DNA of 64,000 nt from a virus. Lineage: Duplodnaviria > Caudoviricetes. The notes beneath the pieces were generated by a model. It worked only from the letters and a program-made list of their open reading frames with translations. It did no database searches and was not told where the DNA came from. The stretch covers positions 32,001 through 96,000 of IMG/VR virus record IMGVR_UViG_3300014205_000180; one strand, given 5' to 3'. Of this stretch, positions 1,919 to 2,303 are shown in pieces. The stretch's first letter is position 1. Each line of letters starts with the position of its first letter. Made by a program: the position numbers and the translations under genes.

Positions 1919-2268
1919 CTTACTACTCCTGGGATACGATGATCCCATAATTTCCATTTCTTGAAGAGCCGACACGGCTCACCAATCAATGGAATGGTGC
2001 AAAGTGAGGTTGCTTGGTTCCCAATATCCGGTTCTCTGAACAGGACACTAGGAATATTGAACAGTTCTAAACGTTGAAATTCTCGTAATAAAGACGATTC
2101 ATCAGCAACTTGGCATAAAACCAAGTTGCTGACACTAGACGGAGCAGCACCAAGTTTTTGCGTTAATAAACCAGATTCTTGCGCGGCATGTGCCGCTTGA
2201 ACCATCTGCTGCGCTAACGGCAGATCGGTTCTAACCAGAAGATAGGTATAAAATTCGTGCTAAAGCAT
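1915..2268 (-). CDS. Peptidyl-tRNA hydrolase type 2 (Pth2)-like protein with in-frame TAG at codon 3 (2260-2262)
   Basis: M L * H E F Y T Y L L V R T D L P L A Q Q M V Q A A H A A...LVL.V..E..L...FREPDIGNQATSLC matches the Pth2 pattern VRxDL...QxxHA...D..T; 117 codons with readthrough, the normal Pth2 size. Confidence 0.85.
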
Positions 2269-2274
2269 GGTATT

Positions 2275-2303
2275 ATTTTATAAAGTCGGGGCGGCTTTGT
2301 AAA
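2275..2303 (-). promoter_or_regulatory. Sigma70-type promoter giving a leaderless transcript of the Pth2-like gene
   Basis: TTTACA (2303-2298), 17-nt spacer, TAAAAT (2280-2275), then AATACC and ATG, so the A of ATG is 7 nt after the -10; no SD present. Confidence 0.7.

What the first reader, a model, noticed from the sequence alone, without database searches (positions are those of the whole stretch)
2205..2303. Leaderless two-codon minigene (AUG-CUU-UAG) heads the Pth2-like mRNA
Seen: TTTACA-N17-TAAAAT puts +1 on the A of ATG 2268. The conserved first Pth2 strand (YLLVRTDL) lies after the TAG but before the track's start (2205), with no ATG/GTG/TTG in between, so a complete fold needs readthrough. 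Established: lambda bar minigenes (AUG-AUA-stop) cause dipeptidyl-tRNA drop-off that needs Pth. Inference: unsuppressed, this mRNA could generate fMet-Leu-tRNA, the substrate class of the enzyme it encodes, allowing feedback.
Basis: partly seen in the sequence, partly recalled or inferred. Interest (0 to 1): 0.8.

Follow-up and report, generated by a model that had tools for sequence, protein, structure and literature searches.

The report
Amber-gated phage Pth2-like gene start
The "two-codon minigene" is really the start of a phage gene for a tRNA-hydrolase-like protein; its third codon is a conserved UAG stop, probably read through by the phage's own UAG-reading tRNA 210 bases upstream, and dozens of distant large phages, some lab-grown, share this layout.

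Summary
On the minus strand, TTTACA-N17-TAAAAT is followed 6 nt later by ATG(2268) CTT TAG(2262-2260). This is in frame with a PTH2-fold gene, and its conserved first strand lies between the TAG and the next possible start, ATG 2205.

A canonical tRNA with a CUA anticodon lies at 2477-2550 on the same strand. The layout "Met, 1-7 further codons, TAG, then the conserved domain" recurs in 29 distinct homologues. These include the cultured phages GAP32, ME3, RsoM2USA, Kaldavass and XacN1. The stop is always TAG, never TAA or TGA. A co-oriented tRNA(CUA) is usually nearby.

Leader length (2-8 codons) and the last sense codon (16 kinds) are not conserved. The feature is therefore not a bar-type tRNA-trapping minigene. 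It is an N-terminal amber gate: the full 117-aa protein is probably made only when the phage suppressor tRNA outcompetes RF1.

The phage otherwise uses the standard code: 40 of 207 ORFs in a simple longest-ORF gene set end in TAG.

Nothing here is experimental. The purpose of the gate is inferred. I found no paper describing it. This scan has noted the same module before on other DNA (notes from at least 152 genomes).

The parts
2477..2550 (-). tRNA with a CUA anticodon (amber suppressor type). Canonical cloverleaf, short variable region, discriminator G. It does not have the tRNA-Pyl architecture, despite ARAGORN's default label.
   Evidence: ARAGORN; Rfam RF00005 57.1 bits against a cut-off of 29; fold z-score -4.05.
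2554..2563 (-). TATAAAACAA box a few bases upstream of the tRNA's 5' end. It belongs to the same box type as the one before the Pth2-like gene. Probable -10 element.
   Evidence: The spacing is read directly from the sequence. Function is inferred.
2304..2441 (-). 45-aa hydrophobic small ORF between the tRNA and the gated gene, with its own AGGAG. It is present in some close relatives only and is not part of the conserved module.
   Evidence: tblastn finds it only in L009. 44-45-aa ORFs are called at the same place in L007-L009 and none in L001-L005.
2275..2303 (-). Promoter-like TTTACA-N17-TAAAAT (overlapping TATAAAATAA). It ends 6 nt before ATG 2268.
   Evidence: Conserved in relatives. Genome-wide TATAAA-at-minus-11 pattern. 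Transcription start not mapped.
2260..2268 (-). ATG-CTT-TAG: true start codon, Leu codon 2 (CTT/CTC synonymous variation in relatives) and the conserved in-frame amber codon 3 (the gate).
2206..2259 (-). Codons 4-21. They encode strand beta1 and the start of helix alpha1, including invariant R13 and D15. This stretch is absent from the 96-aa ORF call.
1915..2268 (-). Full amber-gated CDS: 117 codons with UAG at codon 3, then a TGA stop. PTH2-fold protein of a mainly viral subfamily.
1601..1918 (-). Downstream 105-aa ORF overlapping the gated gene's stop (ATGA), with AGGAG inside the upstream gene. Conserved only in the close clade (48-61% identity). Function unknown.

Best explanation
ATG 2268 is the genuine start of a 117-codon gene for a PTH2-fold protein. 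The UAG at codon 3 is a conserved, programmed "amber gate".

When host RF1 reads the UAG, translation ends after Met-Leu and no enzyme is made. When the phage's own tRNA(CUA) at 2477-2550 is expressed and charged, it inserts an amino acid at this unconserved N-terminal position. The ribosome then goes on to make the full protein, including strand beta1 with the invariant R13 and D15.

The two-codon ORF is therefore the off-state of a suppressor-dependent switch, not a stand-alone minigene.

Inferred purpose: production of the Pth2-like enzyme is tied to the level of active suppressor tRNA. That could match a tRNA-clean-up activity to the side-effects of suppression, or it could feed back on the suppressor itself.

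Shown here:
- the sequence layout and its conservation;
- TAG-only usage;
- linkage to tRNA(CUA);
- ribosome-binding signals placed for the leader ATG;
- purifying selection on the post-TAG stretch;
- the PTH2 fold.

Inferred, not shown:
- that the tRNA is made, charged and decodes this UAG;
- the enzyme's substrate;
- the regulatory logic.
For: 1. tRNA(CUA) lies 210 nt upstream on the same strand.

2. All close relatives (77-93% protein identity, loci L001-L009) keep ATG-CTY-TAG-CAM-GAA with an invariant TAG, and each has a tRNA(CUA) upstream.

3. In 24 IMG/VR loci at 30-52% identity, 21 start M-x(1-7)-TAG before the conserved strand. The only ungated lineage (L025-27) has no tRNA(CUA) within 6 kb.

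4. Cultured phages show the same layout:
- GAP32: MAQ#, with a Sup-tRNA 2.8 kb downstream;
- ME3: MT#, with a tRNA of anticodon CTA 450 nt upstream;
- RsoM2USA: ML#, with a tRNA-CUA about 13 kb away on the same strand;
- Kaldavass: MAH#, with a suppressor tRNA 3 kb away;
- the two-domain forms of XacN1, Xoo-sp13 and RAS14: MK#, MKK#.

5. The stop is TAG in 29 of 29 distinct sequences. GGAG-type Shine-Dalgarno motifs precede the leader ATG. Several lineages have no ATG, GTG or TTG between the TAG and the invariant Arg.

6. The base after the gate TAG is A 19, G 6, C 4, T 0. Ordinary TAG stops in the same loci give A 20, G 18, C 15, T 21 (Fisher p about 6e-4). From memory of E. coli work (Bossi 1983; Poole 1995), this fits selection for a weak-termination, readthrough-friendly context.

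7. Third-position variation in codons 4-21.

8. The full-length model has pLDDT 92.6 with beta1 at residues 7-13. The ten best Foldseek PDB hits are all Pth2 structures, TM 0.6-0.7. The family profile hits PDB Pth2 at 1e-6, and 36 of 46 members hit PF01981.

9. The genome is otherwise standard code, and this is its only clear N-terminal gate.
Against: - There are no expression, charging or proteomic data.
- 40 of the 207 ORFs in a simple longest-ORF gene set for this phage fragment end in TAG. An efficient suppressor would therefore extend about a fifth of its proteins, although the median extension is only 7 codons.
- Some gated loci show no tRNA(CUA) in the sequence available: L006, L010-L012, L029 and L031/32. 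The L031 phage fragment (52% complete) has no tRNA at all.
- The window's context is UAG-C, not the UAG-A seen in most relatives.
- The amino acid inserted is unknown. The suppressor tRNAs differ greatly in sequence and in discriminator base (G, A or U).
- The enzyme is only inferred to act on tRNA esters. The window protein scores 12.8 bits against Pfam's 23-bit cut-off, and the family lacks the Gly-Lys loop of canonical Pth2.
Confidence: 0.66

Rival explanations
1. Bar-type minigene with feedback. The leaderless AUG-CUU-UAG evolved to release fMet-Leu-tRNA(Leu) by drop-off, creating substrate for the hydrolase encoded on the same mRNA. Readthrough is secondary.
For: The UAG sits at codons 3-9 in all homologues. 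This is the zone where short peptidyl-tRNAs drop off most readily, and where short minigenes accumulate the most peptidyl-tRNA, an effect that Pth counteracts (PMC2490762). The gene product has the Pth2 fold.
Against: - The stop is TAG in 29 of 29 sequences. A minigene has no need for TAG.
- The leaders end in 16 different codons and vary from 2 to 8 codons, so no particular tRNA is targeted.
- The short ORF is in frame with, and contiguous to, a conserved coding stretch under purifying selection.
- Tight linkage to tRNA(CUA) is left unexplained.
- The context after the TAG is biased as expected for readthrough.
Confidence: 0.1
2. Readthrough without the phage tRNA. The early UAG is leaky through host near-cognate tRNAs or poor RF1 action on very short peptides. 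This gives constitutive low-level expression, and the tRNA(CUA) has another job.
For: Some gated loci have no detectable tRNA(CUA) in the sequence available. The context after the TAG is depleted of U.
Against: A co-oriented tRNA(CUA) lies within about 1 kb of the gene in most loci. Close relatives with quite different tRNA bodies all keep the CUA anticodon. The ungated lineage lacks the tRNA nearby.
Confidence: 0.08
3. Partial or global TAG reassignment (code-15-like). TAG is simply a sense codon in this phage, and the gene is not special.
For: The phage encodes a tRNA(CUA). Recoded phages with such tRNAs are known (bioRxiv 10.1101/2021.08.26.457843).
Against: Code 11 ORFs cover 96% of the 151-kb record, and 40 of 207 end in TAG. 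No other gene shows a clear in-frame TAG. Related loci also fit code 11. In every homologue the TAG sits only at the extreme N-terminus and never inside the domain.
Confidence: 0.04
4. The 96-aa product from ATG 2205 is the real protein, and the upstream ATG-CTT-TAG is an irrelevant or merely regulatory short ORF. Alternatively, the gene is a decaying pseudogene.
For: Gene callers annotate the 96-aa form in the window's clade.
Against: - The 96-aa form lacks beta1 and the invariant R13 and D15.
- Codon 22 is not conserved as a start: it is GTG in L005 and a non-start residue in most family members.
- Many homologues have no start codon at all between the TAG and beta1.
- The layout is conserved in 29 distinct sequences with synonymous-type variation. 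This excludes decay.
Confidence: 0.04

Closest known systems
Stop-codon-recoded phages with their own suppressor tRNAs (TAG read as Gln, 'code 15'; crAss-like and Lak phages; bioRxiv 10.1101/2021.08.26.457843, PMC9523058)
   Same: A phage-encoded tRNA(CUA) in a phage whose host uses the standard code. An in-frame TAG in a conserved coding sequence. The proposed use of suppression to control when a protein is made.
   Different: Here the genome keeps TAG as an ordinary stop (40 of 207 ORFs). Only one gene is clearly affected. The TAG is confined to codons 3-9 of that gene, before the fold begins. The gated gene is always the same family, and it lies next to the tRNA.
Lambda bar minigenes (AUG-AUA-stop) and synthetic 3-8-codon minigenes (PMC2490762)
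   Same: A two-codon ORF directly behind a promoter. A link to peptidyl-tRNA hydrolase biology. The shortest ORFs give the most peptidyl-tRNA.
   Different: Bar minigenes stand alone, use UAA or UGA (from memory) and act by trapping one scarce tRNA. Here the short ORF is in frame with a conserved gene. Its stop is always UAG. Its last sense codon is free to vary. It travels with a UAG-reading tRNA.
prfB (RF2) autoregulation through an early in-frame UGA (established knowledge, not tested here)
   Same: A conserved early in-frame stop codon in a translation-factor gene. Passage of that stop reports on the cell's decoding state.
   Different: prfB uses a +1 frameshift and senses the level of its own product (RF2). 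Here the frame is unchanged, passage needs a dedicated tRNA, and it is unknown whether the product acts on that decoding event.
Engineered suppressor-tRNA gates in synthetic biology (PMC7969014, PMC13276491)
   Same: An amber codon near the start of a gene plus a separately expressed suppressor tRNA makes a translational AND-gate.
   Different: Those are man-made. This appears to be a natural counterpart, conserved across many large phages.
Canonical Pth2 (PF01981; PDB 1q7s, 1wn2, 2zv3, 1xty, 3erj)
   Same: Same fold (TM 0.6-0.7) and the shared motif R-x-D-L ... Q-x-x-H-A.
   Different: A 2-residue deletion removes the Gly-Lys loop. Canonical D-A-G-x-T is replaced by E-P-D. GAP32 carries a separate ungated canonical Pth2 as well.

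Membership tests
PTH2 peptidyl-tRNA hydrolase (PF01981) | Pfam gathering score of 23 bits | tested here: not met
   The window protein scores 12.8 bits, E 0.14. 36 of 46 family members match at E<=0.1, best 1e-8. The XacN1 homologue scores 25.3 bits.
PTH2 peptidyl-tRNA hydrolase (PF01981) | Pth2 alpha/beta fold | tested here: met
   AF2 model with pLDDT 92.6. The ten best Foldseek PDB hits are all Pth2 structures, probability 1.00, TM 0.6-0.7. The family profile hits 24bt_A at 9.8e-7 and 2zv3 at 2.4e-4.
PTH2 peptidyl-tRNA hydrolase (PF01981) | Motif R-x-D-L ... Q-x-x-H-A at beta1/alpha1 | tested here: met
   R13, D15, Q24 and H27 are invariant in 46 members and align to the same motif in five PDB Pth2 chains.
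PTH2 peptidyl-tRNA hydrolase (PF01981) | Gly-Lys loop after beta1 (the Lys is reported as catalytic in archaeal Pth2; recalled from memory) and the D-A-G-x-T motif | tested here: not met
   All five PDB alignments place a 2-residue gap at the GK position. D-A-G-x-T is replaced by E79-P-D81 with a 4-residue gap.
PTH2 peptidyl-tRNA hydrolase (PF01981) | Hydrolysis of peptidyl- or N-acyl-aminoacyl-tRNA | not testable with these tools
   Needs an enzyme assay.
Lambda bar-type minigene | Two- or three-codon ORF with a strong start immediately behind a promoter | tested here: met
   ATG-CTT-TAG lies 6 nt after a -10-like box.
Lambda bar-type minigene | Stand-alone ORF, not the head of a longer conserved reading frame | tested here: not met
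   It is in frame with 114 further conserved codons, and third-position variation follows directly after the TAG.
Lambda bar-type minigene | Action through a particular last sense codon or tRNA, with any stop codon | tested here: not met
   16 different last codons, leader length 2-8 codons, stop TAG in 29 of 29.
Lambda bar-type minigene | Toxicity in Pth-limited cells with accumulation of peptidyl-tRNA | not testable with these tools
   Needs a pth(ts) host or a cell-free assay.
Suppressor-tRNA-dependent stop-codon recoding in phages | Phage-encoded tRNA whose anticodon reads the stop | tested here: met
   tRNA(CUA) at 2477-2550. Also present in relatives.
Suppressor-tRNA-dependent stop-codon recoding in phages | In-frame stop inside a conserved coding sequence | tested here: met
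   TAG at codon 3, with homology continuing across it.
Suppressor-tRNA-dependent stop-codon recoding in phages | Many genes recoded, with the codion no longer used as a common stop | tested here: not met
   Code 11 ORFs cover 96%, 40 of 207 ORFs end in TAG, and no other clear in-frame TAG was found.

The most novel reading that the evidence does not exclude
The module is a self-referential homeostat. The Pth2-like enzyme acts on the suppressor tRNA itself, hydrolysing its aminoacyl or peptidyl ester, or on the drop-off products that suppression creates. UAG readthrough would then set the level of its own antagonist. The very early UAG would double as a "hungry codon" that yields short peptidyl-tRNA when the suppressor is scarce. 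If so, this would be a natural single-gene genetic-code switch with built-in feedback, possibly the seed from which whole-genome TAG recoding in phages evolved.
Probability: 0.15. Interest if true: 0.9.

Novelty: new variant of a known kind. Interest (0 to 1): 0.72.

Why it matters
Suppressor tRNAs turn up regularly in phages that use the standard code, and their targets have been a puzzle. The XacN1 paper states that no target gene could be identified (PMC5852040). Here, that phage's Pth2-domain gene ORF364 is seen to begin MK-TAG just upstream of its annotated start.

A dedicated pair of a tRNA(CUA) and one amber-gated gene would have three consequences:
- It gives those tRNAs a concrete client.
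- It would be a natural example of the suppressor-gate logic used in synthetic biology.
- It offers a minimal intermediate on the path to phage genetic-code change.

The idea can be tested directly, because GAP32 (Cronobacter), ME3 (Acinetobacter), RsoM2USA (Ralstonia) and Kaldavass (Erwinia) are in culture.

It also matters for annotation. Gene callers truncate or miss this gene: 96 aa here, GAP32_397 is shortened, and the gene is unannotated in RsoM2USA.

Tried and rejected
- **Other gates in this genome.** The scan for start, 1-12 codons, TAG, then a long open frame gave 25 raw matches. The only other serious candidate was ATG-TAG, 17 codons before the polymerase start at window 12605. I rejected it because that ATG has its own GAGG Shine-Dalgarno motif. 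The stricter scan with TAA and TGA as controls gave a background of 20-21 matches against 39 for TAG, and the excess is the Pth2-like genes.
- **C-terminal readthrough fusions.** TAG-ended genes are in frame with the next gene in 6 of 40 cases, against 10 of 166 for TAA and TGA. This is a weak excess that I did not test formally and did not pursue.
- **tRNA identity.** Crude alignment to 116 other phage tRNAs gave no consistent isotype, so the inserted amino acid is left open.
- **Pyrrolysine.** Rejected because the tRNA is a canonical cloverleaf. Pyl genes were not searched for.
- **Thg1.** A Thg1-like gene sits in the module in relative L005, but none is found in this record.
- **PHROGs.** No hit for the protein.
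- **Near-identical DNA search.** A megablast search of the phage collection with window 1-6000 found nothing.
- **IMG/VR locus search.** It failed with the broad alignment A4 and worked with A2.
- **Folding the 96-aa form.** Not done, because AlphaFold is insensitive to a missing edge or central strand and the result would not have been decisive.
- **Literature.** Searches found no description of this module.

Full report
**What is there**

The window is bases 32001-96000 of a 150,988-bp IMG/VR virus record with 33.6% G+C and an estimated completeness of about 60%.

On the minus strand the sequence reads TTTACA (2303-2298), 17 nt, TAAAAT (2280-2275), AATACC, ATG (2268-2266), CTT, TAG (2262-2260), then CAC GAA TTT TAT ACC TAT CTT CTG GTT AGA ACC GAT CTG and onward. 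It is in frame with the 96-aa ORF that gene callers start at ATG 2205. No ATG, GTG or TTG lies between the TAG and 2205.

The promoter-like match (10 of 12) is not beyond chance on its own. Two things give it weight:
- The TATAAAATAA box is invariant in relatives.
- It belongs to a genome-wide habit. TATAAA begins exactly 11 nt before the ATG of 14 genes, and only 63 of 206 genes have a Shine-Dalgarno-like motif.

In this gene the box starts 14 nt before the ATG. In relatives L002 and L007 it starts 11 nt before. A leaderless or nearly leaderless mRNA is plausible but unproven.

ARAGORN and Rfam find a canonical tRNA with a CUA anticodon at 2477-2550 on the same strand (57 bits against a 29-bit cut-off). 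It lies 210 nt upstream of the ATG, and a TATAAAACAA box stands a few bases before its 5' end.

The record has only three tRNAs and is not recoded. Simple code-11 ORFs cover 96% of it, and 40 of 207 end in TAG.

**The post-TAG stretch is coding**

- A phmmer search of 1.8 billion representatives finds about 900 relatives. Most are about 100-110 aa and align from query residues 5-12.
- In an alignment of 46 members, R13, D15, Q24, H27, E79 and D81 are invariant and T87 is nearly so (90% or more). R13 and D15 lie between the TAG and ATG 2205.
- The AlphaFold model of the 117-aa form has pLDDT 92.6, with beta1 at residues 7-13 and alpha1 at 18-38.
- Its ten best Foldseek matches in the PDB are all Pth2 structures: Bit1 1q7s, 1wn2, 2zv3, 1rlk, 1xty and 3erj, with TM 0.6-0.7.
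- The family profile hits PDB Pth2 chains down to 1e-6, and 36 of 46 members hit PF01981.
- Among six close relatives, 12 of the 17 variable columns in codons 4-21 are third positions. Codon 2 varies only CTT/CTC.

**The TAG is a conserved feature, not an accident**

- Every member of the window's clade (77-93% protein identity, from independent metagenomes) has ATG-CTY-TAG-CAM-GAA and a tRNA(CUA) upstream.
- Of 24 IMG/VR loci at 30-52% identity, from phages with contigs of 16-473 kb, 21 begin with Met, 1-7 further codons, TAG, and then the conserved strand. Examples are MS#, MT#, MK#, MN#, MNDP#, MKNA#, MPDT#, MKTLDKL#, MNRIEEFT#, MKKDHNIG# and MKKDLTTL#.
- Sixteen of those loci have a co-oriented tRNA(CUA) within 6 kb, mostly within 1 kb.
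- The single ungated lineage (L025-27) has none nearby.

Cultured phages show the same layout:
- Cronobacter phage GAP32: MAQ#. The annotated GAP32_397 is truncated, and a Sup-tRNA lies 2.8 kb downstream.
- Acinetobacter phage ME3: MT#, with a tRNA annotated "anticodon CTA" 450 nt upstream.
- Ralstonia phage RsoM2USA: ML#. The gene is unannotated, and a tRNA-CUA lies about 13 kb away on the same strand.
- Erwinia phage Kaldavass and Xanthomonas phage XbC2: MAH#.
- The two-domain proteins of XacN1, Xoo-sp13 and RAS14: MK# or MKK#, just upstream of the annotated start.

The XacN1 authors reported two tRNA(CUA) genes and no identifiable target (PMC5852040).

Across all 29 distinct gated sequences:
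- The stop is TAG in every case.
- GGAG-type Shine-Dalgarno motifs sit before the leader ATG.
- Several lineages have no possible start between the TAG and the invariant Arg.
- The base after the TAG is A 19, G 6, C 4, T 0. Ordinary TAG stops in the same loci are evenly distributed (p about 6e-4, though the lineages are not fully independent).

As I recall the E. coli literature, U after a stop gives the strongest termination and A after UAG gives the best suppression. The bias is in the direction expected if readthrough is selected.

**Why this is not a bar-type minigene**

A minigene that works by trapping a tRNA would keep a particular last codon and could use any stop. Here the leader length (2-8 codons) and last codon (16 kinds) drift freely, while TAG and the tRNA(CUA) are kept.

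The suppressor tRNAs themselves differ greatly in sequence and in discriminator base, even between close relatives of this phage. Only the anticodon is constant. This suggests that any amino acid will do at this unconserved N-terminal position. What matters is whether UAG is being read.

The gate lies in the first nine codons, the zone where short peptidyl-tRNAs drop off most readily and where Pth matters (PMC2490762). The unsuppressed state may therefore produce some dipeptidyl-tRNA. I treat that as a possible by-product.

**How it most likely works**

1. Host RNA polymerase transcribes the tRNA and the gene from sigma-70-like boxes (inferred).
2. Ribosomes start at ATG 2268.
3. At UAG codon 3, RF1 and the charged phage tRNA compete.
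4. Only when the tRNA wins is the 117-aa PTH2-fold protein made.

The purpose is inferred. One possibility is dose-matching of a tRNA-ester hydrolase to the side-effects of suppression. A second is negative feedback on the suppressor. A third is a translational timer.

GAP32 also carries a separate, ungated, canonical Pth2 with the Gly-Lys loop. The gated subfamily has lost that loop and has E-P-D in place of D-A-G-x-T. This suggests that the gated enzyme has a specialised job. It also means its hydrolase activity cannot be assumed.

**Limits**

- Nothing here is experimental.
- A strong suppressor should be costly, because a fifth of this phage's ORFs end in TAG. The median readthrough extension is only 7 codons, however.
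- Some gated loci lack a detectable tRNA(CUA) in the sequence available, which is often incomplete.
- The subfamily is almost confined to viruses. Only two contigs were found among 185,579 species genomes, both in MAGs, and one of them is gated (MMS#).

**Novelty**

My literature searches found recoded phages and orphan phage suppressor tRNAs, but no description of a single-gene N-terminal amber gate paired with a tRNA(CUA).

Earlier notes of this scan describe the same module on other DNA, in at least 152 genomes, and on this window. My tests were independent of them and agree with them.

I class this as a new variant of a known kind, namely suppressor-tRNA-dependent recoding in phages.

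Noticed in passing
G000 genome-wide; for example window 13860-15749(-), 2969-3877(-): TATAAA, often inside TTGTTATAAAATAAT, begins exactly 11 nt before the ATG of 14 genes, and only 63 of 206 genes have a Shine-Dalgarno-like motif. Many genes of this phage may be expressed as leaderless mRNAs.
   Followed up: partly
window 2477-2550 compared with L001:2812-2887, L002:2824-2897, L007:2178-2250: Close relatives whose Pth2-like proteins are 77-93% identical carry very different tRNA(CUA) bodies (alignment scores 23-51 out of 74). The suppressor tRNA has either been replaced or evolves very fast, while the anticodon is kept.
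   Followed up: partly
L005:2024-2893: In one close relative, a Thg1-like gene (tRNA-His guanylyltransferase family, a tRNA 5'-end enzyme) sits between the tRNA(CUA) and the gated gene. None is found in this record.
   Followed up: partly
L044:15355-15783 (GAP32_382): GAP32 carries a second, canonical Pth2 with the Gly-Lys loop and no amber gate, about 7 kb from the gated divergent paralogue.
   Followed up: partly
L034:964-1803 (XacN1 ORF364), L038:2464-3306, L039:2527-3312: These are two-domain proteins of about 260-280 aa with the Pth2-like domain at the C-terminus. They are also gated (MK#, MKK#) just upstream of the annotated start. Pfam finds no family for the N-terminal domain at E<=0.01.
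   Followed up: partly
L037:2406 (RsoM2USA), L019:11331, L036:3025, L012:6912: Further frames of the form start, 1-3 codons, TAG, then a long open frame lie near the gated gene in other phages, for example MKS#ISKEELEAP with 188 open codons in RsoM2USA. They may be additional gated genes or chance.
   Followed up: no
G000; for example window 20004-22103(+), 7016-7885(+): Six of 40 TAG-ended genes are in frame with the next gene with no other stop between them, against 10 of 166 for TAA- and TGA-ended genes. This is a weak hint of readthrough fusions; no significance test was run.
   Followed up: partly
L023:5968, L030:5965: In two distant phages the gated frame stays open for about 305 codons, so there the Pth2-like domain is fused to a C-terminal extension of unknown nature.
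   Followed up: no
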